DNA of 64,000 bases from an uncultured Candidatus Saccharibacteria bacterium (GCA_964356795.1 CAYHIK010000004.1:2743-66742), one strand, 5' to 3'. Positions 3,212 through 62,229 are shown, counted from the first letter of the stretch. The notes: generated by a model not told the origin, from the letters alone. Translations and numbers: made by a program.

Positions 3212-4057
3212 ATGCAGAAATCCAGCATCCGCACCGTACGCATCTTTCGTCGACCCGGTCATACGAAAGCGCTCGAATGGGAACGACGAATCATCGCGTG
3301 GCTTCGGAAACATCAGCCCAGCGTTCGCATCACGCACGACGCGGCCGATCTACTCATCGCACTTGGTGGCGATGGAACCATCATCGAAGCAACTCGTCGC
3401 CTCGCACCGGAATCATCACTCGTGCTCGGCCTCAATCTTGGCACGGTTGGATTTCTCGCGTCGGTTCGTGTGCCGTCACAGTTTCTTCGCGCGCTGCGTC
3501 TCGTCTTTGCGGGTAAGTTCCGCACCGTTCCTCGCATGATGCTCTCGATCACCGTCACCCGCGCGCATTCGGTTGTGTTCGAATCGCCCTGTATGAACGA
3601 GGTGTTTATTCAGCACCCCTTCGGCACGGTCGCAATCGATGTACTCATTGGCGTGACCCGTGTGCAGAGCATCCGCGGCACGGGCGTCATCGCCGCAACT
3701 CCCACCGGTTCAACGGGATACAATCTTTCCGCACATGGGCCGATTATCGATCCCGAATTGCAATGCGTGATTATCACCGAAGTGCTCGATCACAACGTGC
3801 CCACACCAAGCATGGTCATCCCCTCCGACAAACACATTCATTTTCGCATTAAGGATTTTCGAAAACGAAACACCATCCACATCGATGGCGCTCGCGGGCT
3901 CCACGACGTCATCCTCGCCATCGATGGGCAGGCATTGTTTCCTTTAGAGAAATCAGATACGATCACGGTCACAAATTCAGGTCGCTCATATTCCCTTGTT
4001 GAGTTGGAGTCGAGCTATTTCTATACCAGCCTCCATGAAAAATTCAGCCTCACCTAA
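3212..4057 (+). CDS. nadK: NAD kinase
   Basis: 281 aa. GGDGT motif (LIALGGDGTIIEA); NGTVGFL-like motif; ATPTGSTGY. Confidence 0.85.
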   Translation: MQKSSIRTVRIFRRPGHTKALEWERRIIAWLRKHQPSVRITHDAADLLIALGGDGTIIEATRRLAPESSLVLGLNLGTVGFLASVRVPSQFLRALRLVFAGKFRTVPRMMLSITVTRAHSVVFESPCMNEVFIQHPFGTVAIDVLIGVTRVQSIRGTGVIAATPTGSTGYNLSAHGPIIDPELQCVIITEVLDHNVPTPSMVIPSDKHIHFRIKDFRKRNTIHIDGARGLHDVILAIDGQALFPLEKSDTITVTNSGRSYSLVELESSYFYTSLHEKFSLT

Positions 4058-25477: not shown

Positions 25478-26776
25478 CTAGATCTGAATATCCCAATCTT
25501 CAACCTCATTATGGAGCAATGGCGGAAGACTCCCCCCTTTTACGATAACCACATCAAAAATCTTCTCCATCCAAAGATGTGTGTGCTCAGGTTCCGCCTC
25601 CTCAGTGGCAATTTTTTCTGGATTGAATACTTGGTCGAATCCCTCAAAAAATGCTCGGCGAAGCTGCTCAGCATCTCCCCAATGAAGACCGGCACGCTCT
25701 CCAGCGCGAATAAGCATCCGGAGGCCATAGCACATGTCGCGCATATCTTTGAGTGATTCGCGTCGCACGCCACTGTACTTTCTAATCTTTGCCGCATCAT
25801 CTTCTTCGCTCCAGTGACTAATGGTGCCAATATCTACAATTTCCGCGGCAAGCGTGACATTTGCGGAATGCATTGCACCGTGCGCAAATCCATCGTTCAG
25901 TAATACCGCCATATTTCTACCCATGCTCTTATAAAACTCAGCGAAGAACGCCTCCTCATGCTCGGGATTTCCAATACTAAGATTAATCATGGATCTTCTC
26001 GTATCTTGACTCTCGAGATTAAAAATCTGAAACGCCCGTTCAAAGAGTGCCCGACTACGCTCAGAGTCTGATTGCGCAGCCTCTGCAATTCTATTATTCA
26101 TCTTCAACAACCGGACAGCTTGACTGGGTTCGAAGTCTTCGCGCGGGGAAATAATTCCACGCGCCCGAAGTTCTGGGACGGTCAGCATAACCCCACGGAA
26201 AGGGAGTCGCTTCACGCTTGCAACCGCCCAATATAATTCACAGCGCAATCCTCGCCCAAGGAGCATCTCTGATTTCGCCATAATATCTCCCCGACTATTC
26301 TCCCCGCTTGAGACGAACCCAAGTACACGGTATCCGTGGTCCTCAACGCTCTCCTTGTTTTTGATTGTCCATGTATCGTATTCCTCAAAGGGAAGGCCTT
26401 TCGCAGAAATCTTCGTGTACCCAACACCCTTCGTGTTCACCGTATAGAAGTGTACGGGGTGCGAGCTACCGCTATCAGACGGAATTTCAACGTGAGCATG
26501 CACACCATGCTCGCTAATAACCCTCCAGTGAGGCGCCTCCACCACTCGAGTCACCGATCCAGCACTCGGACTTATAAACACAAAAAAATCATGAATGTCT
26601 CGATCGGAGTGCACCCGCTCGTTTTTTTGCTCAATAGCATAATCGTCCCCCTCTTTCAGCACCATAAACCGCTCAGGCCGTGGTTCAATGCCAGCTATTT
26701 CACGCCCCACAAAACCATCGAGCTCTTTTAGTGCGGGTCGCGGCGCCTGGCGCTCTCGTTGCATACGTTCATTCAT
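25478..26776 (-). CDS. Divergent SelO/YdiU (UPF0061)-like kinase-fold protein, a putative AMPylase-like enzyme
   Basis: TKGVGYTKISAKG resembles the SelO LKGAG.TPYSR motif; FAHGAMHSANVTLAAEIVDIGT resembles SelO [22 protein letters not shown]. Weak, motif-level only. Confidence 0.4.
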   Translation of the reverse strand: MNERMQRERQAPRPALKELDGFVGREIAGIEPRPERFMVLKEGDDYAIEQKNERVHSDRDIHDFFVFISPSAGSVTRVVEAPHWRVISEHGVHAHVEIPSDSGSSHPVHFYTVNTKGVGYTKISAKGLPFEEYDTWTIKNKESVEDHGYRVLGFVSSGENSRGDIMAKSEMLLGRGLRCELYWAVASVKRLPFRGVMLTVPELRARGIISPREDFEPSQAVRLLKMNNRIAEAAQSDSERSRALFERAFQIFNLESQDTRRSMINLSIGNPEHEEAFFAEFYKSMGRNMAVLLNDGFAHGAMHSANVTLAAEIVDIGTISHWSEEDDAAKIRKYSGVRRESLKDMRDMCYGLRMLIRAGERAGLHWGDAEQLRRAFFEGFDQVFNPEKIATEEAEPEHTHLWMEKIFDVVIVKGGSLPPLLHNEVEDWDIQI

Positions 26777-26790
26777 AGTATAGATGCGTA

Positions 26791-27609
26791 TTATCTCAAA
26801 AATCCTTTTCGCTGAATCTCGGACTGTAGCTCTACATCCTCTTTCGGTGCAAGCCTCATAATCTTTGTAGGAGCGATATCTTGAAACAGCTCACGACCCC
26901 GATCTAGGCGAACCTCCTCCGCGCGAAGTTCTGGATCAAGAGCAATCACGTCAGTTAATGCTCCATCTTCATACAATAATGACACACCACGCGGCACCGC
27001 AATACCACTCGGAAGCTCATTATTACGAATTGCATCCGCGAGGACTGCTCGACGATATGTATCCTCCGGCTCAAAGTGGGGAATGTAGCTCCCCTTCAAA
27101 AATCCGAGCGTATTGCGAATAGGCGAAAGCTCAGGACCAAACGAATCCGTAAGACCACCCTCGAACCAACACATCGCCCCCGCACTCTTTCCACTCAATA
27201 CAATCCCCGATTCATACGCCTCTTTGAGCATGGGGCGTAGTCTATGCGTATCCCAAACGGCAAGCATGTTGGCGGTATTCCCACCGCCAACATAAATGAG
27301 GTCATGCGACAAGATAAATGCTCGCATGCGCTCTTCGGAAAGCTGTCGATCAAAGAGAGAGAGCACGTTTACATGGCAATGACGCTCCATGTTTGCATAC
27401 TTCATCCCTAAAATATCATCGAGACTCTCCCCGCTTGCAGTCGGCACATATAAGACCTCTGGATATGGGACACCCGTACGCGACAAAAGCCAATTATTGA
27501 ACTCCCGCGAATCAGCATTCTCAAGCCCCATCCCACTCCCGACACAGATAATTTGTTGCTTAGCTAATGTGCTCATGTGGTTTTCTGTAGCGTCCAGTCG
27601 CCGTGCCAT
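26791..27609 (-). CDS. Peptidase family S51 (peptidase E/cyanophycinase-like)
   Basis: YVGGGNTANML and the nucleophile motif SGKSAGAM; His in YIPHFEPE. Confidence 0.65.
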   Translation of the reverse strand: MARRLDATENHMSTLAKQQIICVGSGMGLENADSREFNNWLLSRTGVPYPEVLYVPTASGESLDDILGMKYANMERHCHVNVLSLFDRQLSEERMRAFILSHDLIYVGGGNTANMLAVWDTHRLRPMLKEAYESGIVLSGKSAGAMCWFEGGLTDSFGPELSPIRNTLGFLKGSYIPHFEPEDTYRRAVLADAIRNNELPSGIAVPRGVSLLYEDGALTDVIALDPELRAEEVRLDRGRELFQDIAPTKIMRLAPKEDVELQSEIQRKGFLR

Positions 27610-30600
27610 GTCTCATTGCCATCAGCATCCATCTCCCAAATAACGACCGCTGGCGTATCCCCCCGCTTGTCATGTACCATATAGCTATTGAAAGTCGTCT
27701 CGTTGGTTCGCACCAATCCCATAGGACGACAATGTTTAAATCGTGCGCGATATACATCATTGATCGGTTGTCGATTTGTAGACGCCATGCCACGCATGTC
27801 CATCGGAATTGCTACGACGGCATGCGAATCCCACAGAGTAACGCTCCCACCCGCTCGCATGCGCTCCGCCCGCATACGTCGCGCCGTGGCAATCGCCTCC
27901 TTCAGCGAGCTCAACACGAACGCGTCAGCGTCGAGCGTTCGGATAAAGTTTTCCGTTGGATTATTCGCGCGCACCACAAGCACGGGCACTTTTGATTCTT
28001 TAGATTTCGCCATAATTGCGAGCACCGAACCACGAAGCTCCTCGTTGTCCTTACCTCGGTTTGATGCATACACCCACGTTCGTAGATTGGGGTACTCGCC
28101 CTCTGCGATTTCTCGATGCCGTGAAGTGTGGCACGAATCACCTAAATCGCCTGAAAAAATATGGAGCAAGCCAGAAACGGGCACCAGTGAAACTGAAACT
28201 GATTTCACTGGCTGACTAGTTCCGACCCCAAGGATGTCATCGAGCTTTCGCTTGAGAGCAGTAATCGGCAGATAGCCAGTACGCGGATCGAGTTTTTGAA
28301 GCCACACCTGATTAAGCTTCTCGAGTAGTGCAGGAGAGAATGGCGTGTGCTCAGTATGGTCTGGGTCCTGGAAGTGGTGCAAATAATGCTCTTCGATATA
28401 ATCCTTAGAAAGCGCGTGGACGCCGTATATCCTTTCTGCTGTTGGTTCATCATCCCTCCAAAGCGCGAGCGTCGCTACAACATCTCCCCAATTTGTACTC
28501 TCCATAGTCTGTAACGCATGAACCGCGGAAAGCGCGCGAATGTCCTTAGCGAGCGAGATGGGTCCGTCGAGCTCAGCCATTGACTCTAAGGCTGCGACGA
28601 TATCGGGCTCTCCTTGCTCGCTTTCATACAACACATCCAGAATCGTTTGGATGTTTTTACTCATCTCCTTGAGCGCACCAGCCTGCCGCTCGATACCGAT
28701 ACGGCCTCTTGGATTCTGCAACGCCTTTGACTTCCGAATAAGCTCCTGTTTCTTTTTTAGGTCCCCCTCGTCACGAATAGCTATCTCGATTTCTTCAGGG
28801 GCACTCGCAAGAAGCGAACGGAGTGTGTTTTCTTCATCAAGAAGACGATGATGCGCGGAATCAAGTAAATCCAAAACAGAAAATAACCCGGCATCACCCC
28901 ATGCTTCTGCAAGTGGCTCGTACACATCGACCACCTCTTGGCTTACCAGGAATGCAGAGAGCGCCTCTGACTGGTCTTTGGATTTCTCCCGCGCTTGGCG
29001 TGCGAGCGGAATATCCATGCTCGCCTCCTGGAATCCGATGGGAAGCTTCGCGAGCGCCGGACGAAGGCGCACCGTTTTGCGATACGCATCAAGAATATCG
29101 GACACGCTATCGCCTCGCTCAAACTGTGTCGTCCCCTTGAGCCGACTGAACAATTCCTCCCCAAGTGAAGACTCGATACCCCCAGGAATCTCGTCCTTCA
29201 ACATCGTAGACTGCATGGTTCCGAGCGATTTATATACAGCATTAAACAGCTCAAGTGAGTCCTTGAAGCGCCATCCTCCGCTTTTTCGCCTCGCTTCTAT
29301 CCCAAATTCGGAGCACTCCTCCAGAGACTCCCCAGAGAGCGAGTCGAGATTGCGATGCCTTTGACAGTCTGCGTAGAATCGAAAGAGTGCGGGGGTGTTG
29401 CGCATCCCAACTAATTCCACAAACGATACGAGCATCGCCATATCGTCCTTGTTCTCCACACGAACCACGCCACTGCTGGTGAGCTCCTTCAGGAGTGGTA
29501 TGAATTCAGAAGTCCACGGATCATTCGCAACATTCTGAGCAAAGCCCTGTATGTTCGCTATCCTAGAAAGGGCGCCAAAGAACGGATCATGCTGAATGGC
29601 GCTCCGTATCAAAGACATCTCATCGGGGTACTCGCGCGACAACGTATCGTCGTTGAGATTTTTTAATATAGCGACCGCCTGCCCTGGATCGCTATATGCC
29701 GATTTTAGAACCGCCGAGCCGAGGCTATCAATGCGAGCTCGAGATCCGAGCAGTTTCAGTTTTCCAAACGCAGAAGCAAGGAGATTACTCTTAGTACCTG
29801 GGAGTTCGTACGCGATAATCTTCCCTACAATGCAAGTCATGAGCTCTGGCGAAGGGACGTATTGGTCTACTTCTAACAGGCCCGCGATGTGGCCATCGCC
29901 ACGCGCGCGGTCAAATAGTTCAGTCGCAAGAGTCTCGAACTCTGCGTCTGTCGAGGCAAACCCAGCGGAAACCACGTTATGAAATGCCTTGAGGCGCTCA
30001 AGGGTGGGGTAGAATCCCAACGTACGCATACCCCGTATCAGCGCGATATATGCATGCTGCATTTCACCGCTGTGCTTTGTAAAGTCAGGGCGAATGGAAG
30101 TCACGCGCCGTACGACATCTATCGGATTCGGCATACTCGAGAAACGACATAGAGAAATAATAAGCTCCACAACCTGTTTCTCGCTAAAGTCTGACTCGAT
30201 GCCAGAAACATCCCGAAGCGCAATGAGGTCTTGCGGTGTGTTGGGTATTTCTTTTCGAATGCCCTCACGAAGCCGTGAATATCGCTCATGAATCGCATCT
30301 TTGTAGAGAGAAAAATCAGGCTCGATACCCGTAAGTTCTGCGGCTAATCGAATGACGTCAGTCATCCGTAGATTCGGCGAGCGAAGCCATGTCTTATAAC
30401 GCGCATGCATCTTTGACGCTTCGATACGCGGGCGGATAGCAGTTGCCTCAAGGAGCCGCACTGCAGCATCGAGCTGTAGTTGTCGTCCGTAATGGTACTG
30501 ATACGTAAGCCCCTCCGCCTGAAGAATAATGTCCTCGTATTGCTGTTGAATTGCTGGCTCAATAGCTTCGAAATTCGGCTCAATGCCCGTAATTTCCTGG

Positions 30601-32132
30601 AGTAAATGAATGCCTTTTCGCGAGCGCTCAGTTATATCAAGCGCGAGTTTCATATACGCGCTCTGGAGAAGTTCTGGCGCGATTTCGTATCGCACACCTG
30701 TCAGATGCTTCACATTCAACGCGAATTGAAGTGCTGGTGGATCAAATGATTCGTCGCTGAGCAAGGAGTAATACATGTCCTGAATCTGCATCGAGAAATC
30801 TGTGTACTCCATACGCACGCCCGACATACGCTCCAATTGCGGAATAATGGAGAGGACCTCTCGGCGGTTCTCATGTGAATCCCCTCGACACGCACTTAGG
30901 GTCAATTCCCAATACGCGAAGCGCATAAGCGACGGCAAGCGTTCCGTTTCTGTGTAGCGCTCCAATGCATTCATGACCCGCTTCATCGACGCGAGCATCG
31001 CTGAGTGTTGATGCTCGCGCCCACTGAAATAGCGCCAGCCACCTATAAATTCAATCATGGAAGCTTGCACCCCTGGATGCAGAAAGGATTCGGCATCACC
31101 TGCTTGAATTCCCGCAAAATCAAGAGGAGTGATTTCTGTGCCACCATACGGCGAGCGAGCAGCCTTATTAAGATACGAAATGTGATGATCAATCTTCGCA
31201 ATTTCTTGCTGGTCAGATGCACGCACCCGGAGAGCGCGGAATAGACGCACGAAGTCAGTCGCAATCGCATGCGTCCTATACCGATCCCCGTACTCACCTA
31301 CTTTGAGTTTATATGCGTGAAATAATTCTAGGATTGCATCGGCATCATGCGCTGATCCGATTCGCGTGAAGATAGTCCTAAACACCTCAGACGATGCAGG
31401 GCGAGCCATGACAGTATCGAGCGAAAAAAGATTCATAATACGCCCTGCGAGCGCAGGGGTTGCCATGTAGGGAACCATCCTGATGCACGTAGTGAGCCGG
31501 TCCACGTCCACGGCACCGGATTGAGCATATGCGATCACGTGCTCGAGTGCTTGAGCTCCGTTATCACGAAGTCGACGACGAAGCTCGACAATATACTCCG
31601 CTTCCCGATTCTCGCGTTCATGTCCCGCCCCGTAGTACTCATCACTGGGATCAATATAGGGGGGATCGTAGAAAGCCCGGTGGTCCACGCACGCCTGTAA
31701 GAGCTTGGCAACGCGCTCTCCCTCCTCTTCTTGCGTAGCGCGCTCAAGCTTTGCAGTGTCTCGACGACGCAAAGCCTCGCGCCCCCACTCAAAAACATCG
31801 AAATCATGTATATCATCGGGTACAAGCTCCGCAATAAGCTGACCCTCCATGGGATTGTCTGGATCGGTATCGGTAAGAATGACGACGCGATACGCTACAC
31901 CCTCCTTAAGTGCTTCGCCACCTGGAGGCGGTGTGTACGTAATAATCTTCCGGTCAGGCGCGCTACTCTTGTATATGACGCCTCCGTGCTTTGTGGTAAA
32001 TCGTCGGAATGTAACGTCAAGAAACACTCGCCCCTCCAGCCCAAGAGGGCTCACCTCATGTGATGGTTGAGATTCTGGCTGATGTTCTGTATGAGAGTGC
32101 CCCTGCGCGCCTTCTGTCATGCCTATTGACAA
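27573..32132 (-). CDS. Very large (1519 aa) hypothetical protein with internal about 60-aa tandem repeats
   Basis: Uninterrupted 4.56-kb ORF. Four repeats carry the [LV][TS]GIEP[DN]F motif at about aa 520-760; no P-loop, nuclease or TM motif seen; its 3' end overlaps the S51 peptidase gene by 37 bp. Confidence 0.6.
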   Translation of the reverse strand: MSIGMTEGAQGHSHTEHQPESQPSHEVSPLGLEGRVFLDVTFRRFTTKHGGVIYKSSAPDRKIITYTPPPGGEALKEGVAYRVVILTDTDPDNPMEGQLIAELVPDDIHDFDVFEWGREALRRRDTAKLERATQEEEGERVAKLLQACVDHRAFYDPPYIDPSDEYYGAGHERENREAEYIVELRRRLRDNGAQALEHVIAYAQSGAVDVDRLTTCIRMVPYMATPALAGRIMNLFSLDTVMARPASSEVFRTIFTRIGSAHDADAILELFHAYKLKVGEYGDRYRTHAIATDFVRLFRALRVRASDQQEIAKIDHHISYLNKAARSPYGGTEITPLDFAGIQAGDAESFLHPGVQASMIEFIGGWRYFSGREHQHSAMLASMKRVMNALERYTETERLPSLMRFAYWELTLSACRGDSHENRREVLSIIPQLERMSGVRMEYTDFSMQIQDMYYSLLSDESFDPPALQFALNVKHLTGVRYEIAPELLQSAYMKLALDITERSRKGIHLLQEITGIEPNFEAIEPAIQQQYEDIILQAEGLTYQYHYGRQLQLDAAVRLLEATAIRPRIEASKMHARYKTWLRSPNLRMTDVIRLAAELTGIEPDFSLYKDAIHERYSRLREGIRKEIPNTPQDLIALRDVSGIESDFSEKQVVELIISLCRFSSMPNPIDVVRRVTSIRPDFTKHSGEMQHAYIALIRGMRTLGFYPTLERLKAFHNVVSAGFASTDAEFETLATELFDRARGDGHIAGLLEVDQYVPSPELMTCIVGKIIAYELPGTKSNLLASAFGKLKLLGSRARIDSLGSAVLKSAYSDPGQAVAILKNLNDDTLSREYPDEMSLIRSAIQHDPFFGALSRIANIQGFAQNVANDPWTSEFIPLLKELTSSGVVRVENKDDMAMLVSFVELVGMRNTPALFRFYADCQRHRNLDSLSGESLEECSEFGIEARRKSGGWRFKDSLELFNAVYKSLGTMQSTMLKDEIPGGIESSLGEELFSRLKGTTQFERGDSVSDILDAYRKTVRLRPALAKLPIGFQEASMDIPLARQAREKSKDQSEALSAFLVSQEVVDVYEPLAEAWGDAGLFSVLDLLDSAHHRLLDEENTLRSLLASAPEEIEIAIRDEGDLKKKQELIRKSKALQNPRGRIGIERQAGALKEMSKNIQTILDVLYESEQGEPDIVAALESMAELDGPISLAKDIRALSAVHALQTMESTNWGDVVATLALWRDDEPTAERIYGVHALSKDYIEEHYLHHFQDPDHTEHTPFSPALLEKLNQVWLQKLDPRTGYLPITALKRKLDDILGVGTSQPVKSVSVSLVPVSGLLHIFSGDLGDSCHTSRHREIAEGEYPNLRTWVYASNRGKDNEELRGSVLAIMAKSKESKVPVLVVRANNPTENFIRTLDADAFVLSSLKEAIATARRMRAERMRAGGSVTLWDSHAVVAIPMDMRGMASTNRQPINDVYRARFKHCRPMGLVRTNETTFNSYMVHDKRGDTPAVVIWEMDADGNETWHGDWTLQKTT

Positions 32133-36106: not shown

Positions 36107-36802
36107 ATGCATCAAAAAGGCAATTTAGTCAAGAATCTTCGCTTTGCCACCATCGCTACCGACGTGGCCCTTTTTACGATTCATAATCAAGAATTATTGG
36201 TTCGCGTGATTCCCGTTCACCGCCCACCTCACTATCATAATGCTCGTGGCCTCCCCGGCGGGCTCATTCTCCCCCATGAAACAGCAGAAAATGCCGCACG
36301 AAGACTCCTCATCGAAAAAGGAGGCATCACATCGTCAGCGGTATACCTAGAGCAACTCGCGACATTCAGCGCACTCGATCGCGATCCACGCGGACGCGTT
36401 ATCGCAGTTGCACACATCGGACTTGTGTCATGGAGCGAACTCACCGATGCGGAGCGAAGTACAAGTGATGCCGCATGGGTTACCGCGCGCGAAGCGCGCA
36501 ACCTCGCCTATGACCATGATGAGATGCTCACGATGGCGCACGCACGACTCGCGTCTCGCATCGGATACTCCACGATTATCCGTGGCCTCATACCATCCGA
36601 ATTCACGCTCACCGAACTCGAGCAAGCCTATGAGTGCGTTCTTGGACGCCCCATGGACAAGCGCAATTTCCGGAAAAAAATATTGAAACTCGATATTATT
36701 CGACCCCTTCACCGCACCCGCCAAGGCGCGAAAGCACGTCCAGCGCAACTCTATGCATTCGCGAAGAACTCGATTCAGATGATCGATCTCTTCCGCACAT
36801 AA
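36107..36802 (+). CDS. Nudix hydrolase domain fused to a C-terminal winged-helix domain (NrtR-like transcriptional regulator)
   Basis: Nudix box GLPGGLILPHETAENAARRLLIEKGG; C-terminal about 80 aa basic helix-rich region as in NrtR. Confidence 0.6.
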   Translation: MHQKGNLVKNLRFATIATDVALFTIHNQELLVRVIPVHRPPHYHNARGLPGGLILPHETAENAARRLLIEKGGITSSAVYLEQLATFSALDRDPRGRVIAVAHIGLVSWSELTDAERSTSDAAWVTAREARNLAYDHDEMLTMAHARLASRIGYSTIIRGLIPSEFTLTELEQAYECVLGRPMDKRNFRKKILKLDIIRPLHRTRQGAKARPAQLYAFAKNSIQMIDLFRT

Positions 36803-47150: not shown

Positions 47151-47624
47151 CTACCGCTCCCCCGCACTCCGCAAAATTCGCTCGAGGGTTGAGGATACGG
47201 CACTGACGATGAGGGAGCCGAAAATGATGAAGACGCCCATAGCAACTCCGCCCGCGGAATCATCGCTACCGCTGAAAAACCGAATGAAGAATAATCCGGG
47301 CACGACGAAACCAATGATGGCTACTGCGCAGTATCGTATCGTGCGCACGGCTTTCATAGCTGATGACGAGAACACCGTATCCGACCCGACGTATCCCAAC
47401 AACTTAAATGCCTGCACAAGTGCGATGAAGAATGGGATAGATGCGATGTATGCGTATACCAGAAATGGGTCTTTGAAATAAATCTCAAAGAGCGTGGCGT
47501 TCACATTTCTACCTTCAGCAGTCGGCTCCCACAGCAAGAATGCAACCGCGCCAATACCGATGAGCACCGTGACCGCTTGGAGAAATAGTACGGAGTATTT
47601 TTTCATAGCCCTAGACTTGAACAC
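47151..47624 (-). CDS. Membrane protein (hypothetical, 4 TM)
   Basis: 157 aa hydrophobic. Confidence 0.35.
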   Translation of the reverse strand: MFKSRAMKKYSVLFLQAVTVLIGIGAVAFLLWEPTAEGRNVNATLFEIYFKDPFLVYAYIASIPFFIALVQAFKLLGYVGSDTVFSSSAMKAVRTIRYCAVAIIGFVVPGLFFIRFFSGSDDSAGGVAMGVFIIFGSLIVSAVSSTLERILRSAGER

Positions 47625-47628
47625 CCTC

Positions 47629-48366
47629 TTAGCGGCGCTTCAATTCTTCGCGATAATCTTCGAGAGCCTTCTTGAGCGCTGGTTTTGCTTTTTTGATTGC
47701 CTTGTTGCCAATGAGTGCGGCGGTGATACTCCCGATAGCATCGAGAGCTCGCCCATTGTTGGCGTAGAGCTTCGCTGCCTGCATTTCGACATCAATGAGT
47801 GCCTGTGCACCAGTCCCAACTTCTGCCAGTTGAGCAGACTTCCAATCCATAATCATGGCATGCGCTTCCATGGGCAGGCGACCCGGTTGTCGCAGTGCCT
47901 CCCCGATGCGCTCGACGGTGGGGATTTCTGGTGCTGATTGCTTGGGAAGCAGCTGCTCAAGCTTGTCTGCGATTGCTTGGAGACGGTCTACTTCTGCGGT
48001 GTTGCCCGCATCCTTTTCCTCCCATAGATTTTCATTCAAAAATTCAAGCTGTTCTTCGATGAGACTTGGTTCGGTATATCCTGCGTTGAAAAACAAAAGC
48101 GCTCGCCACGCAGGGTATTCGTTGCGTTCATTCTGAGGGAGATGATCAACTGATTCGTCGAGCTCTGCCAGAACATTCTGAAATTGCGACGCCCGCTCAT
48201 CTTCTGTGAATTCCGGCTCTTCAATTCCGAGCGCTTTGAGCTTCCGAAGCTCTTCACCTGCGCGCTCAAAAGTAGCAGGGGCGTGCTCTTGACTATCCTG
48301 ACTTGGCTCGGGAGTTGATTCAGGAGGTTGTTCAGACATAGCGAGAGTATACCACACTTCACTCAC
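47629..48366 (-). CDS. Acidic helical hypothetical protein
   Basis: 245 aa, Glu/Asp-rich N-terminus; ATGA-coupled to the upstream SelO-like gene. Confidence 0.35.
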   Translation of the reverse strand: MSEVWYTLAMSEQPPESTPEPSQDSQEHAPATFERAGEELRKLKALGIEEPEFTEDERASQFQNVLAELDESVDHLPQNERNEYPAWRALLFFNAGYTEPSLIEEQLEFLNENLWEEKDAGNTAEVDRLQAIADKLEQLLPKQSAPEIPTVERIGEALRQPGRLPMEAHAMIMDWKSAQLAEVGTGAQALIDVEMQAAKLYANNGRALDAIGSITAALIGNKAIKKAKPALKKALEDYREELKRR

Positions 48367-51300
48367 GCTCGGTCGCCGGATAGGCGCTCGGCTAGCTGTG
48401 ATGCGAGAGAACCACGTTCATCGTCCGATTCGATATAATCACTCATATTCTCGAGACAGTTTCGGAGAAGCTGTGGATGCTCATGAAGTAACTGGGAGAA
48501 GTCTCGCTTACGAATAAAGAGCATGCTCACCTCATTATTCGCGATGACACTACAGACGGCACCCTGACCTGTGATTATGGACCGCTCTCCAAATAGACCG
48601 CGCTCCAATGGTTTGTCATATAATTCCAAGGGACTCACCCGCATATCGGCAATATCCTGACGAAGAGTAACGGAACCACGCACAAGCAGAAATACTCCCG
48701 CGGTCTGCTGGCCTTGTTGAATAATCGACTCGCCCGAAGTAAACGCAACGGGTACTGCCTTATCGGCGAGAAATAGACGCACCTCCTCGGGATTAATCTC
48801 CCGAAAGATACCCAATCCACGCACACGATCAAAAACACCGGTCGTTCGTTGGAGGAGAATACTCCTGATGATATTTTCCATCCTCGGATACATCGAAGAG
48901 AGTTCTTGCAAATTATCCCGAGTAATTCGAAGCAATCTGGCAGGGGTTTCTGTAGCCACGGTTGCCGTCCGCTTGTGTCCCGCCTCCAATACGCTCGCCT
49001 CCCCGAGAATGGCGCCCCTGTTGCTGATTTTATTGATGACACGGCCATCAACCACTACCCTGCATGTACCCTGCACAAGTATATAGAGTGCGTCGGCGTT
49101 CTGACCTTGCGTCATCACCTCTTTCCCCTGCTCAACATCAACCGTGGTGAGAAGTTTCGCTATCGTTCGAAGCCTTGCTTTCGATGGACGCAAGTACCTA
49201 AAGAGTGGCACCTCTGCATACCGGAACTCCCTACCAGTCGGGTAGCGAGGCAGTTGGCAGAGCTGATCAATCTCCACCTCCAGCGTCTCGGCGTCAATCT
49301 TGCCAGACCGATACTCTTCGACCCAATAGCGTAATTTTCCGTTAAGCTCTGACATCGTCGGAAAGTTCTGATTCGCGGCAATCAGTCGATCGCACCAATA
49401 ATCCTTTGGTGGCAACATCCCTTGTGCATCAATGCTATCAAGGAAGGAGAAGAGTTGCAGGACGAACGCTTCGGCATCCATAGTAAATGCCGGCAACCCC
49501 TCTCTATCGACGACCGCATGATCTCTGATGAAGTACTCGCCCTGATTGACCTCGCCCTTAGACGTGAGTTGTGGCTCATAATGAATATGCGCACGAGCCG
49601 AAGCAAACGCCTTCTTTCTCTTGAGGATGCTCATTGCCTTCAGTATTCGCGCCGGGGTGTGTAAGAGTTTCGAGAGTCGTCGGAATAGGGCGGACATATC
49701 TACCAAAGCCGGATCGTCATCATCGGATATTTCATCGTATAGATTCATTGAAACCCTCTTGGGACTAATCTTTTTAGAGAGCGATTCGAACTGATTGGTA
49801 AGCGATAGGACCACCTCTCCTTGGCGCGCCATCAACTGCTCGATATATACCTCTTCGATGCCCAGTAATTCGAGCAATAAACAGGACAAGTGCGTGCGTC
49901 GGAGAATAGAGAATTTTTCACTAAGTCCAGCAGCTGAAATCTTCTTCACAGTCGCAAGCTGTTCGAGCACATTCAGAAAACCAAAGCCCTCATATCCAAA
50001 GTAATTATGATAGTACTTTGTTGAGGTCGTGTTGTACGGCCCTCGGTACGGGACAAACGAAACCGTCTCGAGATCAATCATGCGCCCGTCCAACGAGTAG
50101 TTTCCAGTCGACCAAGCCCCTAACATAAATCGATAGGCAAAAAATTGAGCATCAAGCTTTGCATACGCAGCAACCACCGTATCGAAATCGATATTGATAG
50201 TAGGATCAAACTCAACGTGACTCGGCCTGTCCAGCGCGCCATCGTCAGCGCGAACGAGGAGCGAGAGCGGGACGGGGTACGGATTCCATTTGAATTCTTC
50301 TTGAGCCTTCAATGCAATAACAACGGGATGCTCGACAACGCTCTTGGTGAAATGGCCAATCCATCGCGACAGAATCAATCTCCGCAGAGATCCGATGAGC
50401 TCCATCTTACCAGTGCTATGACTGGGGGTGGCGCTGGTACACAGCGTCGTCTTGCCCACGCCCATCACGTTAAACTTCTTACCGTAGTAGACGGCACGGC
50501 CAGACCCCTGGTTTCCGCTGAGCCCGATGTTTGTCATGTCCTGCTGGCGATCGGCGTATGTATTGATTGACACGTCTGCTGATGCAGAGTCCGCAAGAAC
50601 AACGGCAAAACGAGATGCATGCGCGTGCGCATCACCCGAATACCCCATCCGTTCAAAGTACTCGCGATCGGCATATACCACCTCGTACTCCTCGGGCTCC
50701 AGCCTTCGTGTATGCTGGCGGACAAACACCCGCTCTCCAAGCCTCTGTACCGCACTGGGTTGCGCAGTAAGATCCGTACCCAAGTCAATATATGGCATCA
50801 TCGCAATAATCCACCACGCAGGATCACCCTTCTGTCCAAATGATCGCTCTTGGTATTGATCGCGCAGGTAGCTGTCGTAGTAATCACGGAGTAGCTCAAC
50901 AATGATAAACCCGCTGTTTTGTCGTTTTGATAGCTTCTTCAGTGTAAGCTTTCGGCTCGGATACTGACTAGCGATGAACAATGTTGGTTTTAGTTCGCGT
51001 ATGAAATCTTTCCAGATGACAAGTGTTGCCAAAATGCTGTGCACATAATCGCGGTCGCTAATACTGTCGTACACTTGGCGAATGCGCTCCGACAAGCCTG
51101 TCCCGTCACCATGTTCCTGCGTAAAAAAAGTTGGATCTTTTCCCTGCATAGCCAACGCGATAGCCATATCGTCGAATGGATGATTTGCGAGCAGCGCATC
51201 AACCCGAGGGGGAAGGTCCGTACCAATACGAACATCCTGAAGTAATTTCGTCACACTCCGGATGGTTGCCTTGGGCAAAATACGCTCATAGAGCGCTTTT

Positions 51301-51503
51301 GTATGCTGGGCGGCGAGAGCGTCCGGCTCAATAAGAATAACCGTCCCCTTGAAACCAATCATTGCCAACGCGTCTCCTATCTTTTTCTCATACCCAGGCG
51401 CGACTTCAACAACAACCCCGTCGAGCGGAATCGGGTTCTTCTCTAGGAGACTCCTCCAGATGTATGAAACCGGTTTTACTGGTGACAGAGTTTCATGCGC
51501 CAT
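48363..51503 (-). CDS. Large protein: N-terminal SelO/YdiU-like kinase-fold region fused to two C-terminal cyclic-nucleotide-binding (CAP-family) domains
   Basis: SelO-like GSGRAVYYGKKFNVMGVGKTTLCT...GKMELIGSLRRLILSRWI and GNYSLDGRMIDLETVSF; cNMP-binding GEASVLEAGHKRTATVATETPARLLRI and GERSIITGQGAVCSVIANNEVSMLFI. Confidence 0.5.
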   Translation of the reverse strand: MAHETLSPVKPVSYIWRSLLEKNPIPLDGVVVEVAPGYEKKIGDALAMIGFKGTVILIEPDALAAQHTKALYERILPKATIRSVTKLLQDVRIGTDLPPRVDALLANHPFDDMAIALAMQGKDPTFFTQEHGDGTGLSERIRQVYDSISDRDYVHSILATLVIWKDFIRELKPTLFIASQYPSRKLTLKKLSKRQNSGFIIVELLRDYYDSYLRDQYQERSFGQKGDPAWWIIAMMPYIDLGTDLTAQPSAVQRLGERVFVRQHTRRLEPEEYEVVYADREYFERMGYSGDAHAHASRFAVVLADSASADVSINTYADRQQDMTNIGLSGNQGSGRAVYYGKKFNVMGVGKTTLCTSATPSHSTGKMELIGSLRRLILSRWIGHFTKSVVEHPVVIALKAQEEFKWNPYPVPLSLLVRADDGALDRPSHVEFDPTINIDFDTVVAAYAKLDAQFFAYRFMLGAWSTGNYSLDGRMIDLETVSFVPYRGPYNTTSTKYYHNYFGYEGFGFLNVLEQLATVKKISAAGLSEKFSILRRTHLSCLLLELLGIEEVYIEQLMARQGEVVLSLTNQFESLSKKISPKRVSMNLYDEISDDDDPALVDMSALFRRLSKLLHTPARILKAMSILKRKKAFASARAHIHYEPQLTSKGEVNQGEYFIRDHAVVDREGLPAFTMDAEAFVLQLFSFLDSIDAQGMLPPKDYWCDRLIAANQNFPTMSELNGKLRYWVEEYRSGKIDAETLEVEIDQLCQLPRYPTGREFRYAEVPLFRYLRPSKARLRTIAKLLTTVDVEQGKEVMTQGQNADALYILVQGTCRVVVDGRVINKISNRGAILGEASVLEAGHKRTATVATETPARLLRITRDNLQELSSMYPRMENIIRSILLQRTTGVFDRVRGLGIFREINPEEVRLFLADKAVPVAFTSGESIIQQGQQTAGVFLLVRGSVTLRQDIADMRVSPLELYDKPLERGLFGERSIITGQGAVCSVIANNEVSMLFIRKRDFSQLLHEHPQLLRNCLENMSDYIESDDERGSLASQLAERLSGDRA

Positions 51504-51619
51504 ATGTCACAACAAAAAATCTAGCATCCACGACTTCTACTGAAAAATACTAGCATAAACTGCGGAGATTTTCCTTGCTGGCCGCGTGGAACGTAGAGGG
51601 AATGAATTCTTCCTGTCAG

Positions 51620-51655
51620 AAAAAAGAAAAGCGGCCATTGCTGGTCGCTTTCTGC
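51620..51655 (-). terminator. Rho-independent terminator (module shared with 58923-58960)
   Basis: Minus strand gcgaccagcaatggccgc hairpin followed by TTTTCTTTTTTCTG. Confidence 0.5.
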
Positions 51656-60914: not shown

Positions 60915-61706
60915 TTACTTCGGAGAGATAGACAGGAGTGCGGGATTGAGAACCCCACCCGACTCGTTGGCTTTTTCGCCCTCGTTTCCGAGCTGAGTCT
61001 TGACGTTGTGCCAGCGGCGAAGCTGTTCGCCGTACTTCCAGCACTGCGAGAGCATTGAGACGGCGCATCCGTACATGAAGCCCGTGATGCCCTCGAGGTC
61101 AGCCTCGGAAGATGCTGCGTCCGCAACATCTTCCAGTCTCTTCCCTTGAGCCATCTCGATCTGCATGAGACGCGCCCAACGTTCCGCGTAAGCGAGCACC
61201 GCGCTGCCGTAGCCGTCCTGGTTGCTTTCTCTGAACTTGAGCCAGCCGCGCCAGCCACTCGCGCTCTCAATTGCAAGGCCTGGATCGTTGAGCAGCTTGG
61301 CCTCGACGGCTTCGCGGTGGGCACGAGCCTTCTTCTCGTACTCCGCCCCTCGCCTCTGTCGCTTGCGCTCGTTCTCGGCTTCGATGCGAGCGTCGTTCGC
61401 CTTCTCTGTGTCTGTGAGAGCGGGCTTCGGATGGGGACCAACACTCTTGCCGATGTAGCCACTCAACGCTCGCGACCAGTCGCGGTAGATGAGCTCGGGA
61501 TTGGAGTCCTCGCGCACCGACACGACCACATCGTTGAACTCGAACTTGATGACCCGCTTCTTCTTCGCCGAGAGCGCGATTGCTTCGGCGATGGTCGGCC
61601 CGATACTTGAGCCGCACATCACGTCGTACACGCCACCCTTCTCTCGCCACAGATTCTCCACGTTCTCCTCCCTTTCTCTTTGCTTCTCAGAACTTGGTTG
61701 CCCCAT
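60915..61706 (-). CDS. Hypothetical protein; N-terminal domain paralogous to 51669-52037, basic coiled-coil middle
   Basis: Start set at MGQPSSEKQ (8 bp after the upstream stop); the longer ORF in the track overlaps the 61714-62229 gene. Confidence 0.4.
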   Translation of the reverse strand: MGQPSSEKQREREENVENLWREKGGVYDVMCGSSIGPTIAEAIALSAKKKRVIKFEFNDVVVSVREDSNPELIYRDWSRALSGYIGKSVGPHPKPALTDTEKANDARIEAENERKRQRRGAEYEKKARAHREAVEAKLLNDPGLAIESASGWRGWLKFRESNQDGYGSAVLAYAERWARLMQIEMAQGKRLEDVADAASSEADLEGITGFMYGCAVSMLSQCWKYGEQLRRWHNVKTQLGNEGEKANESGGVLNPALLSISPK

Positions 61707-61713
61707 CGTTGTG

Positions 61714-62229
61714 TCAGTTGACTGAGTGGTGGAGTCCCTCGACTCCGCTGACGAGCCCGTTGCCCGCACTGACTGCACTTGGGGCCCAGCCCTGCCTGAT
61801 GGTGGCGAGCCACTGTTCGTAGGTCGCGCCCATGTCTGCGAAGGCAGGAGCGTTGTTGTCGGCGAGCCAGCGAGCGAGAGCTTCCGGCGTCTCCATGACT
61901 GGAGAAATCGGCGTGCCCTCGGAGGTGGATTCGTACATCTGGTAGTGAGTGCGCTCCGCCTCCGGCCAATCCGGCATGGAGTCTTCCTTCTTAGGAATGG
62001 GGCCGTTCTCCTCTTCGAAGGTCCTACCGTCGGTCGAAGCGTCACGAGGCACGAAGCTGGGCGGTTGCGTTGCGTAGCTGAGCTCGTTACCCAGGGCCCA
62101 CTGACACGCTTCGATCTTGTAGGCTTCGAGCCTCTCCTTGAAGCTGTCGCTCAACAGCGGAATGAAGTAGCCCCTCGCGTCCCTGGGATGCTCCCAGTTC
62201 GCGGAAACTCTGCGAACTTCTCTGCTCAT
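61714..62229 (-). CDS. Hypothetical protein (cassette gene)
   Basis: RBS AGGAGG then ATG (MSREVRRV); 171 aa. Confidence 0.35.
   Translation of the reverse strand: MSREVRRVSANWEHPRDARGYFIPLLSDSFKERLEAYKIEACQWALGNELSYATQPPSFVPRDASTDGRTFEEENGPIPKKEDSMPDWPEAERTHYQMYESTSEGTPISPVMETPEALARWLADNNAPAFADMGATYEQWLATIRQGWAPSAVSAGNGLVSGVEGLHHSVN

What the first reader, a model, noticed from the sequence alone, without database searches (positions are those of the whole stretch)
48363..51503. A 1046-aa protein fusing a SelO/YdiU-like kinase-fold region to two cyclic-nucleotide-binding domains
The C-terminal 250 aa contain two unmistakable CAP-family cNMP-binding segments (GEASVLE...RTATVATETPARLLRI; GERSIITGQGAVCSVIANNEVSMLFI). 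The N-terminal about 600 aa carry SelO-like motifs (GSGRAVYYGK...MGVGKTTLCT...GKMELIGSLRRLILSRWI; GNYSLDGRMIDLETVSF). Together with 25478-26776 this is a second SelO-like paralog in the window, but the HG.M.N. His is missing (AWSTGNYSL), so it may be catalytically altered.

A cNMP-gated SelO-like enzyme is not an architecture I know from characterised proteins. It is followed, ATGA-coupled, by an acidic 245-aa protein and a 4-TM protein.
Basis: partly seen in the sequence, partly recalled or inferred. Interest (0 to 1): 0.65.

Follow-up and report, generated by a model that had tools for sequence, protein, structure and literature searches.

The report
cNMP-sensing, rewired SelO-like enzyme
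This gene from a groundwater Patescibacterium encodes an uncharacterised four-domain protein (methyltransferase-like domain, divergent SelO-type kinase-fold domain with a remodelled ATP site, two cyclic-nucleotide-binding domains), which suggests that a second messenger controls a SelO-type protein- or metabolite-modifying enzyme, something not described before.

Summary
The ORF at 48363-51503 (-), 1046 aa, is real. It has 46-56 % identical orthologues in Patescibacteria.

It has four domains, not two regions:
- aa 245-750: SelO/YdiU-like kinase fold. The top 9 Foldseek PDB hits are all SelO/YdiU (E 1e-11, TM 0.57). Pfam SelO reaches only 13.7 bits.
- aa 765-888: canonical cNMP-binding domain (E835, R845).
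- aa 889-1030: second cNMP-type domain whose phosphate-binding Arg is Ala in all 13 orthologues.

The SelO-like site keeps the Gly loop (GSGR), both gamma-phosphate arginines (R418, R426) and the metal ligands N468 and D477. The clade carries a coordinated triple switch: beta3 Lys to Met/Leu, alphaC Glu to Arg, catalytic-loop His to Leu. More distant relatives keep Lys/Glu/His.

Relatives without the cNMP domains sit in a conserved operon (TrmB, AAA_17 P-loop protein, Gfo/Idh/MocA oxidoreductase). The cNMP-fused forms do not. The downstream acidic and DUF2975 genes are not conserved partners.

The claimed second SelO paralogue at 25478-26776 is not supported.

Most likely this is a cNMP-switched SelO-type nucleotidyltransferase with an unknown substrate. 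Databases annotate it only as "cyclic nucleotide-binding". It is a new variant of a known kind.

The parts
48363..51503 (-). Complete ORF, 1046 aa: MTase-like, SelO-like, CNB-A, CNB-B
   Evidence: ORF listing. Identical public protein P0001 and 12 full-length orthologues at 46-56 % identity. Domain coordinates verified by translation.
50784..51482 (-). aa 8-240: class-I SAM-methyltransferase-like Rossmann domain. Motif I is VVVEVAPGYEKKIG (E33, A35-P36-G37, K41). The beta2 end is LIEPD (E59, D61). Motif IV is ANHPFDDM (H108, D111, D112).
   Evidence: AF2 model mf64dc4393191, pLDDT 90, pTM 0.83. Foldseek against PDB gave 214 hits at E<=1e-3; all 50 listed are SAM-MTases (NSun6 at 2e-6, MnmM, UmaA, TaqI; TM 0.3-0.43). 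No Pfam family even at E<=1. The residues are invariant across 43 homologues. The domain also exists as stand-alone proteins of about 250 aa.
49254..50771 (-). aa 245-750: SelO/YdiU-like protein-kinase-fold domain with a C-terminal helical extension
   Evidence: AF2 model m588594c7fb5c (aa 296-760), pLDDT 89.9, pTM 0.90. The top 9 Foldseek PDB hits are all SelO/YdiU (6eac_A at E=1.4e-11, TMq 0.57, 488 columns); canonical kinases follow only at E about 1e-3 and TM 0.25. Pfam SelO hits 7 of 31 family members, best E 3.7e-6. hhalign against E. coli SelO gives E=1.4e-3 over 171 columns. Kinase-only relatives begin at profile position about 245.
50481..50522 (-). aa 328-341, LSGNQGSGRAVYYG: glycine-rich loop, equivalent to SelO QLGDGRGILLG
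   Evidence: hhalign. GSGR is present in nearly all of about 150 aligned relatives.
50361..50474 (-). aa 344-381: beta3 strand and alphaC helix. M347 replaces the SelO beta3 Lys and R375 replaces the alphaC Glu.
   Evidence: hhalign mapping. The model has a strand at aa 344-347 and a helix at aa 369-385. Across relatives the triple at positions 347/375/461 is K/E/H in 73 sequences and [LMI]/R/[LMQFV] in about 55, with no mixed K+R state.
50211..50261 (-). aa 415-431, LLVRADDGALDRPSHVE: R418 and R426 align with the two SelO arginines that hold the gamma-phosphate of the flipped ATP (P. syringae R176 and R183)
   Evidence: hhalign. Invariant in the family. Residue roles are from PMC8097203.
50055..50129 (-). 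aa 459-483, FMLGAWSTGNYSLDGRMIDLETVSF: catalytic loop and DFG-equivalent. L461 replaces His. N468 and D477 align with the SelO metal ligands N253 and D262.
   Evidence: hhalign. N468 and D477 are invariant in all aligned relatives.
48840..49211 (-). aa 765-888: CNB-A, a canonical cyclic-nucleotide-binding domain. The phosphate-binding cassette is GEASVLEAGHKRTATV (E835, R845, T846).
   Evidence: Pfam PF00027, best stretch aa 789-868. Residue-level alignment to PKG CNB domains. The Arg is kept in 11 of 13 orthologues.
48414..48839 (-). aa 889-1030: CNB-B, CNB fold with a degenerate cassette, GERSIITGQGAVCSV (E973 kept, Arg replaced by A982)
   Evidence: Second Pfam cNMP stretch. In the alignment to Plasmodium PKG the Arg column is Ala. 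It is Ala in 13 of 13 orthologues.
47629..48366 (-). Downstream 245-aa acidic protein (or 236 aa from the internal ATG). Probably co-transcribed, but not a conserved partner.
   Evidence: 4-nt GTGA overlap. No family in Pfam, NCBIfam or PADLOC. Absent next to homologues in L001, L003, L005, L006 and L007.
47151..47624 (-). Downstream DUF2975 membrane protein. Not a conserved partner.
   Evidence: PF11188, E=1.3e-22. No counterpart in the other loci.

Best explanation
The gene encodes a signalling enzyme whose catalytic core is a divergent SelO-type kinase-fold domain.

Shown:
- The four-domain architecture.
- The SelO fold.
- Conservation of the SelO residues that bind a 'flipped' nucleotide triphosphate and its metals: Gly loop GSGR, R418 and R426 for the gamma-phosphate, N468 and D477 for Mg/Mn.
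- A clade-wide coordinated replacement of the beta3-Lys/alphaC-Glu pair by Met/Leu plus Arg (R375).
- One canonical and one Arg-less CNB domain.

Inferred:
- The domain still binds ATP (or another NTP, or NAD) phosphate-first, with R375 from helix alphaC taking over the phosphate contact of the lost lysine.
- It transfers a nucleoside monophosphate (AMPylation or NMPylation) to an acceptor.
- cNMP binding to CNB-A, with CNB-B acting as a structural or relay module as in tandem-CNB regulators, switches this activity on or off in cis. PKG and the mycobacterial cAMP-dependent acetyltransferase Pat work this way.
- The N-terminal methyltransferase-like domain, whose motif residues are invariant, acts on or docks the same substrate.

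The acceptor (protein or small molecule) is unknown.
For: - Fold: the top 9 PDB hits are all SelO/YdiU over the full length.
- Motif-by-motif alignment to E. coli SelO and, for the sister clade, (probability 57 %, E=1e-4).
- Pfam SelO hits in 7 of 31 members, and 22.9 bits in P0084.
- G333-R336, R418, D420, D425, R426, H429, N468 and D477 are invariant or nearly so across about 150 relatives. This argues for a working nucleotide/metal site.
- The K/E/H and L/R/L states are mutually exclusive. This looks like a compensated change, not decay.
- CNB: Pfam E=2.9e-27. The tandem aligns with PKA-R and PKG. CNB-A has the Glu and Arg of the phosphate-binding cassette.
- The MTase-SelO-CNB-A-CNB-B cassette is kept as one unit in 13 orthologues and inside a 7620-aa giant protein.
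- Residue roles in SelO are from PMC8097203 and PMC3281104.
Against: - The beta3 Lys and alphaC Glu are reported as almost invariant and invariant, respectively, in genuine SelO proteins (PMC3281104) and are absent here.
- The Asp of SelO's 'TDN' is Gly, Ser or Asn here.
- The Pfam SelO score for this protein is below threshold. Profile searches against PDB sequences found nothing.
- No nucleotide cyclase was found among the ORFs scanned in the 64-kb window or next to any orthologue.
- CNB-B cannot bind cNMP in the canonical way, and 2 of 13 orthologues also lack the CNB-A Arg.
- I had no model coordinates or full-length model, so the R375-phosphate contact and the CNB-to-active-site coupling are untested.
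Confidence: 0.45

Rival explanations
1. The fold is the same, but the domain works on a small molecule (sugar, cyclitol or NAD-type metabolite), not on proteins. It would adenylylate, phosphorylate or cleave a metabolite that the methyltransferase-like domain also modifies. In this paralogue the CNB domains replace transcriptional control.
For: - Non-CNB members and N-domain-only genes sit immediately downstream of a 475-aa Gfo/Idh/MocA oxidoreductase and a 195-aa AAA_17 P-loop protein, with a divergent TrmB-type regulator, in 11 fetched loci representing 10 distinct genomic places (L007 and L016 are the same place). In L023 an inositol monophosphatase and a phosphoglucomutase follow.
- Distant members are fused to glutamine-dependent NAD synthetase (P0084) or to radical-SAM domains (P0071, P0077).
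- SelO/YdiU structures with NAD exist (9l29, 9jym), and a SelO NAD hydrolase activity has been reported (PMC13391479).
- MchC-type SelO relatives mature microcins (PMC3281104).
Against: - The cNMP-fused genes have left that operon. None of its genes is in the window or beside the cNMP-fused orthologues.
- Every SelO activity with a defined acceptor is on proteins.
- Neighbourhood and fusion evidence is indirect.
Confidence: 0.25
2. The domain is a catalytically dead pseudo-enzyme. It has lost Lys, Glu and His and serves only as a nucleotide- or cNMP-dependent scaffold or sensor.
For: The three residues that define an active kinase or SelO N-lobe and catalytic loop (beta3 Lys, alphaC Glu, HG motif) are all replaced. 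The Asp of 'TDN' is not conserved.
Against: The remaining phosphate- and metal-binding residues are invariant over a deep clade. The replacement is a specific, covarying Lys/Glu to hydrophobic/Arg swap, not random drift. SelO itself was once classed as a pseudokinase and is active (PMC8097203).
Confidence: 0.12
3. The protein is an anti-phage effector of a Pycsar-like cyclic-nucleotide defence system. Its CNB domains would sense cCMP or cUMP made by a cyclase encoded elsewhere.
For: The CNB region matches PADLOC PycTIR and Pycsar effector models (E=1.9e-23). One orthologue lies near a restriction-modification cluster (L001).
Against: The match covers only the generic CNB domain. There is no PycC or other cyclase, TIR domain or TM effector domain. 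There is no conserved defence neighbourhood. The window context is housekeeping: EngB, MgsA, MacB-type ABC exporter, sigma factors.
Confidence: 0.06
4. The CNB-type domains bind something other than a cyclic nucleotide, or only mediate dimerisation, as in CooA, CprK and other CRP/FNR-fold sensors. The protein would then not be a cNMP effector.
For: CNB-B lacks the Arg in 13 of 13 orthologues, and CNB-A lacks it in 2 of 13. No cyclase was found nearby.
Against: CNB-A has the complete Gly-Glu...Arg-Thr cassette in 11 of 13 orthologues. Its best sequence matches are true cNMP binders (PKG, PKA-R, HCN, MloK1).
Confidence: 0.1

Closest known systems
SelO / YdiU (UPF0061, Pfam PF02696): AMPylating/UMPylating pseudokinase
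   Same: - Kinase-like core plus C-terminal helical domain; best structural match over the whole 465-aa model.
- Gly loop GxGR.
- Two gamma-phosphate arginines.
- Catalytic-loop Asn and DFG-type Asp.
   Different: - Only 14-16 % identity, and below the Pfam threshold.
- beta3 Lys replaced by Met, alphaC Glu by Arg, HG by LG, 'TDN' by 'TGN'.
- No C-terminal redox Cys/Sec motif.
- Fused to an N-terminal methyltransferase-like domain and C-terminal CNB domains.
cGMP-dependent protein kinase (PKG) and the PKA regulatory subunit
   Same: Tandem CNB-A/CNB-B arrangement that regulates a kinase-fold catalytic domain. These are the best PDB sequence matches of aa 760-1046.
   Different: Here the CNB pair is C-terminal to the catalytic domain, the catalytic domain is SelO-type and not a phosphotransferase kinase, and CNB-B lacks the phosphate-binding Arg.
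Mycobacterial cAMP-dependent protein acetyltransferase Pat (NCBIfam NF058543)
   Same: A bacterial CNB domain fused in cis to a protein-modifying enzyme. The CNB region hits the Pat model (E=4.3e-12).
   Different: The catalytic domain is GNAT in Pat and SelO-like here. Pat has a single CNB domain, N-terminal to the enzyme.
MchC/MceJ-type remote SelO homologues (microcin maturation)
   Same: They are divergent SelO-fold proteins with a variable 'HG' motif that work in small-molecule/peptide modification gene clusters (PMC3281104). The operon context of the short paralogues is similar.
   Different: I made no direct comparison. They have no MTase-like or CNB domains.
Pycsar effectors (PycTIR, PycTM)
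   Same: The CNB sensor domain is similar.
   Different: There is no adjacent cyclase, TIR domain or TM effector, and the output domain is entirely different.

Membership tests
SelO / UPF0061 (PF02696) | Scores at or above the Pfam gathering threshold (22.8 bits) | tested here: not met
   13.7 bits, E=0.027 for this protein. Pfam SelO is matched at E<=0.1 by only 7 of 31 clade members, best E 3.7e-6. The distant member P0084 reaches 22.9 bits.
SelO / UPF0061 (PF02696) | Kinase-like fold with the SelO-specific C-terminal helical domain | tested here: met
   Foldseek: 6eac_A at E=1.4e-11, TMq 0.57 and TMt 0.56 over 488 columns. The top 9 hits are all SelO/YdiU.
SelO / UPF0061 (PF02696) | beta3 Lys (P. 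syringae K113) paired with alphaC Glu (E136) | tested here: not met
   M347 and R375 occupy the aligned positions. The whole clade is [LMI]/R. The sister clades keep K/E.
SelO / UPF0061 (PF02696) | Two arginines binding the gamma-phosphate of the flipped ATP (R176, R183) | tested here: met
   R418 and R426 align with them and are invariant. This is by sequence alignment only; the geometry was not checked.
SelO / UPF0061 (PF02696) | Catalytic-loop Asn (N253) and DFG-equivalent Asp (D262) | tested here: met
   N468 and D477, with the same 9-residue spacing, invariant in all relatives.
SelO / UPF0061 (PF02696) | 'HG[VNS]' catalytic-loop motif | tested here: not met
   LGA (L461). His is retained in 87 of the relatives examined but in none of this clade.
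SelO / UPF0061 (PF02696) | AMP/UMP transfer from the alpha-phosphate of an NTP | not testable with these tools
   Needs an [alpha-32P]NTP against [gamma-32P]NTP assay.
Cyclic-nucleotide-binding domain (PF00027) | Pfam score above threshold, with two domains | tested here: met
   94.9 bits against 27.5, two stretches.
Cyclic-nucleotide-binding domain (PF00027) | Phosphate-binding cassette with Gly-Glu and Arg-[ST] | tested here: met
   Met for CNB-A: G834-E835 ... R845-T846.
Cyclic-nucleotide-binding domain (PF00027) | The same cassette in the second domain | tested here: not met
   CNB-B has G972-E973, but Ala982 sits in the Arg column. This holds in 13 of 13 orthologues.
Cyclic-nucleotide-binding domain (PF00027) | Binds cAMP, cGMP or another cNMP | not testable with these tools
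   Needs ITC or DSF. Specificity cannot be read from the cassette alone.
Class I SAM-dependent methyltransferase | Rossmann-like alternating beta/alpha MTase fold | tested here: met
   214 PDB hits at E<=1e-3; all 50 listed are SAM-MTases; best is NSun6 at 2e-6; TM only 0.3-0.43. The strand and helix order in the model is consistent.
Class I SAM-dependent methyltransferase | Motif I (E/D-x-G-x-G-x-G) and an acidic residue at the end of beta2 | tested here: inconclusive
   E33-V-A35-P36-G37 (first Gly replaced by Ala) and E59-P60-D61 are invariant or nearly so. They sit where motifs I and II are expected, but no residue-level structural alignment was available.
Class I SAM-dependent methyltransferase | Matches a curated MTase sequence family | tested here: not met
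   No Pfam or NCBIfam MTase family even at E<=1. Four stand-alone N-domain relatives also have no Pfam family.
Pycsar defence system | CNB effector encoded next to a PycC cyclase, with a TIR or TM killing domain | tested here: not met
   Only the CNB part matches. No cyclase was found among the scanned window ORFs or in the orthologue loci.

The most novel reading that the evidence does not exclude
This protein is the founding example of a second-messenger-gated SelO-type nucleotidyltransferase (a 'cNMP-dependent AMPylase'). It belongs to a previously unrecognised family, the MTase-like-SelO-like module, with several hundred 50 %-identity cluster representatives in CPR bacteria and in MAGs labelled Omnitrophota, Riflebacteria, Bdellovibrionales and DPANN archaea. 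In this family one clade has moved the phosphate-binding positive charge from the beta3 lysine to an alphaC arginine, a new solution for a kinase-fold active site.
Probability: 0.3. Interest if true: 0.78.

Novelty: new variant of a known kind. Interest (0 to 1): 0.62.

Why it matters
SelO is the conserved kinase-fold AMPylase of bacteria and mitochondria. How its activity is switched is still being worked out.

A natural fusion of a SelO-type domain to cNMP sensors would give a directly testable case of second-messenger control of AMPylation or NMPylation. It occurs in Patescibacteria, whose signalling is almost unknown.

The covarying Lys/Glu to Leu/Arg switch is a clean natural experiment on how kinase-fold active sites can be rewired. 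It also warns against calling such proteins 'dead' from motif loss alone.

The work further exposes an unannotated family (MTase-like plus SelO-like, no matching Pfam model) with a conserved oxidoreductase and P-loop kinase operon and with NAD-synthetase and radical-SAM fusions. These give handles for finding its substrate.

Tried and rejected
- HMM profile searches of the family (A2) and of the kinase-only sister clade (A5) against PDB sequences found nothing at E<=10. The link to SelO needed hhalign and structure.
I could not measure the R375 geometry or make a residue-level MTase superposition.
- Conserved partner hypothesis for the acidic 245-aa and DUF2975 genes: rejected. They are absent from all other loci.
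- Second SelO paralogue at 25478-26776: rejected as unsupported.
- Pycsar-type system: considered and rejected, because there is no cyclase or effector domain (and the contexts).
- Search for the operon partners (Gfo/Idh/MocA, AAA_17, TrmB) in the window by tblastn: nothing. The same search in the giant proteins also found nothing.
- Riboswitch or other RNA element around the gene: no Rfam match at E<=1.
- The consensus promoter scan found none, and the terminator scan was not above background. By eye there is a hairpin with one mismatch followed by a T-run at about 51610-51650, upstream of the gene.
- No nucleotide cyclase among 30 further window ORFs scanned.
- I could not check whether the KINtaro kinase-like database already lists this family.

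Full report
**Observation.** The ORF 48363..51503 on the minus strand is real: 1046 aa with an ATG start. The identical protein (P0001) is in public assemblies, from a groundwater metagenome contig (ENA ERZ1292624, 'Hain_H41_01um'). Twelve full-length orthologues share 46-56 % identity. About 30 shorter homologues (about 715-770 aa) match only the first 71 % of the protein. Sources that give a name call them only 'cyclic nucleotide-binding domain-containing protein', 'CRP-like cAMP-binding protein' or 'hypothetical protein'. The named taxa are Candidatus Vogelbacteria, Harrisonbacteria, Parcubacteria and Patescibacteria. The window itself is ordinary chromosomal DNA: RNase Y, MnmA, NAD kinase, adenylosuccinate synthetase, MgsA, EngB, a MacB-type ABC exporter and ECF sigma factors.

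**Domain map.**
- Pfam finds two cNMP_binding stretches (E=2.9e-27) and only a sub-threshold SelO hit (13.7 bits against a cut-off of 22.8, E=0.027, aa 440-549 on profile positions 224-340).
- I predicted two parts separately, using alignments of the family. Residues 296-760 gave a confident model (pLDDT 89.9, pTM 0.90). Its nine best matches among solved structures are all SelO/YdiU (6eac_A at E=1.4e-11, TM 0.57 over 488 columns). Canonical protein kinases follow only at E about 1e-3 and TM 0.25.
- Residues 1-300 also gave a confident model (pLDDT 90). It matches class-I SAM-dependent methyltransferases, with 214 hits at E<=1e-3 and all 50 listed hits being SAM-MTases (best NSun6 at 2e-6, also MnmM, UmaA, TaqI; TM 0.3-0.43). 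No MTase sequence family matches it even at E<=1.
- Kinase-only relatives begin at profile position about 245. This places the boundary between the two domains.
- The architecture is therefore: MTase-like (aa 8-240), SelO-like (aa 245-750), CNB-A (aa 765-888), CNB-B (aa 889-1030). Coordinates were verified by translation.

**Sequence-level link to SelO.**
- Pfam SelO hits 7 of 31 family members (best E 3.7e-6) and reaches 22.9 bits in the distant member P0084.
- hhalign of E. coli SelO (taken from NC_000913) against the family alignment gives E=1.4e-3 over 171 columns. Against the more canonical sister clade it gives probability 57 % and E=1e-4.
- Both alignments put the same motifs in register:
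  - Gly loop QLGDGRG against NQGSGRA.
  - beta3 HLKGAG against NVMGVG.
  - alphaC IRE against LRR.
  - LMRV..LRFGH against LLVR..LDRPSH.
  - HGVMNTDN..LDYG against LGAWSTGN..IDLE.
- According to the literature, K113 (stabilised by E136) and R176/R183 hold the gamma-phosphate of the flipped ATP in P. syringae SelO, and D262 is the DFG aspartate (PMC8097203). N253, nine residues before D262, is my numbering for the conserved PKA-N171-equivalent Asn. In the SELO family the Lys72 equivalent is almost invariant and the Glu91 equivalent invariant (PMC3281104).

**A rewired active site.**
- In this protein R418, R426, N468 and D477 (the equivalents of R176, R183, N253 and D262) and the GSGR loop are present. 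They are invariant in about 150 aligned relatives.
- The Lys is Met347, the Glu is Arg375 and the His is Leu461.
- An exhaustive profile search of 1.84 billion cluster representatives found 857 relatives at E<=1e-3 and 194 at E<=1e-30.
- Tabulating positions 347/375/461 over the best of them gives K/E/H in 73 sequences, plus 13 with K/[SNC]/H. It gives [L/M/I]/R/[L/M/Q/F/V] in about 55, with no intermediate K+R combination.
- In a neighbour-joining tree of the kinase core, the L/R/L sequences form one clade. Its sister is a group of about 735-aa K/E/H proteins (no support values).
- The predicted strand at aa 344-347 and helix at aa 369-385 place M347 and R375 in beta3 and alphaC.
- I read this as a compensated relocation of the positive charge from beta3 to alphaC, not as decay. 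That is an inference; I had no access to model coordinates.

**The CNB pair.**
- The tandem aligns with the tandem CNB domains of PKG and PKA-R (E 1e-12 to 1e-10).
- CNB-A has the full phosphate-binding cassette (G834-E835 ... R845-T846). The Arg is kept in 11 of 13 orthologues.
- CNB-B keeps G972-E973 but has Ala982 in the Arg column. All 13 orthologues have Ala there.
- CNB-B is therefore a conserved, non-canonical module. It is probably structural or a relay, or it binds something else.
- The CNB region also matches Pycsar effector models in PADLOC (E=1.9e-23). That match covers only the CNB fold, and no cyclase, TIR domain or TM effector is present.

**Genomic context.**
- The next gene (245 aa, acidic) overlaps by GTGA, or starts at an ATG 24 nt downstream. 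It is not ATGA-coupled. A DUF2975 membrane protein follows.
- Neither gene is found next to any homologue. The only shared neighbour is the EngB-like GTPase in the Vogelbacteria locus.
- By contrast, the homologues without CNB domains, and genes that encode only the N-terminal domain, lie in a conserved cluster found in 11 fetched loci, which represent 10 distinct genomic places because L007 and L016 are the same place. The cluster is: divergent TrmB-type regulator, then a roughly 195-aa AAA_17 P-loop protein, then a roughly 475-aa Gfo/Idh/MocA oxidoreductase (69 % identical between genomes), then the MTase-like-SelO-like gene.
- None of these partners is in the window.
- In the tree the CNB-fused proteins group apart from the operonic short forms.
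- The whole cassette, including both CNBs, is embedded in a 7620-aa ORF of a MAG labelled Planctomycetia. With one CNB it is embedded in a 4071-aa ORF of a MAG labelled Omnitrophota.
- Distant K/E/H members are fused to CN-hydrolase plus NAD synthetase (P0084) or to radical-SAM domains (P0071, P0077).
- A pattern scan of one genome per species found only 16 loci among 185,579 species. Most are Patescibacteria.

**Interpretation.**
- The best-supported reading is a cNMP-switched SelO-type nucleotidyltransferase whose acceptor is unknown.
- The operon and fusion data make a small-molecule acceptor (sugar, cyclitol or NAD-related) a serious rival to protein AMPylation.
- A dead pseudo-enzyme is less likely, because all remaining ligand residues are invariant and the change covaries.
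- A defence-effector reading has little support.
- The claimed second SelO paralogue (25478-26776) shares only a 26-residue catalytic-loop-like motif. It has no Pfam or PDB support.

**Novelty.**
- No paper in the held library combines SelO with a CNB domain. The 2012 survey of SELO found no credible domain fusions (PMC3281104).
- Among the relatives scanned against Pfam, none matches a family for the MTase-like domain, and the SelO model is matched only weakly by a minority of them.
- I could not check the KINtaro kinase-like database.
- I class this as a new variant of a known kind: a SelO-type kinase fold with a new active-site configuration and a new regulatory fusion.

Noticed in passing
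window 25478-26776 (-), with 26791-27609 (-) and 27573-32132 (-): The 432-aa ORF called a 'SelO-like paralogue' carries only an HGAMHSANVTL..IVDIG kinase-catalytic-loop-like motif, with no Pfam or PDB-sequence hit. It sits next to a Peptidase_S51 gene and a 1519-aa ORF that has no Pfam or PADLOC family at all.
   Followed up: partly
window 60915-62045 (-): A 376-aa ORF has a C-terminal Tad4 (type I Thoeris inhibitor) domain (E=3e-30). GC content rises to 0.58 at 60-62 kb, which may indicate mobile or phage-derived DNA.
   Followed up: no
loci L007/L016, L013, L014, L015, L017, L019, L022, L023, L024, L026: A conserved Patescibacterial gene cluster: divergent TrmB regulator, AAA_17 P-loop protein (about 195 aa), an unusual 475-aa Gfo/Idh/MocA oxidoreductase (69 % identical between genomes), then the MTase-like-SelO-like gene or a gene for the MTase-like domain alone. 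In L023 an inositol monophosphatase and a phosphoglucomutase follow.
   Followed up: partly
P0058 (7620 aa; locus L010) and P0059 (4071 aa; locus L012): The whole MTase-SelO-CNB cassette is embedded in giant ORFs of MAGs labelled Planctomycetia and Omnitrophota. The two giants share nothing outside the cassette.
   Followed up: partly
P0084 (locus L028 2930-7576), P0071, P0077, P0187: Distant K/E/H-type members of the family are fused to CN-hydrolase plus NAD synthetase (NadE) or to radical-SAM domains. P0187 joins the MTase-like domain to a weak Pkinase-like region.
   Followed up: no
L003 9571-10098, L005 8172-8606, L026 8334-8999: NUDIX hydrolase genes lie just downstream of two cNMP-fused orthologues. 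A weak PDEase_I (cyclic-nucleotide phosphodiesterase) hit lies next to one operonic short form. Both may be coincidence.
   Followed up: no
window 36107-36802 (+) and 3212-4057 (+): An NrtR-type NUDIX/winged-helix NAD regulator and an NAD kinase are in the window. This is relevant only if the SelO-like domain turns out to act on NAD.
   Followed up: no
window about 51610-51650 (-): A hairpin with one mismatch (aaagcgacc-agcaat-ggccgcttt) followed by a T-run lies between the upstream 122-aa ORF and the gene. This suggests the gene starts its own transcript. The terminator scan did not flag it.
   Followed up: partly
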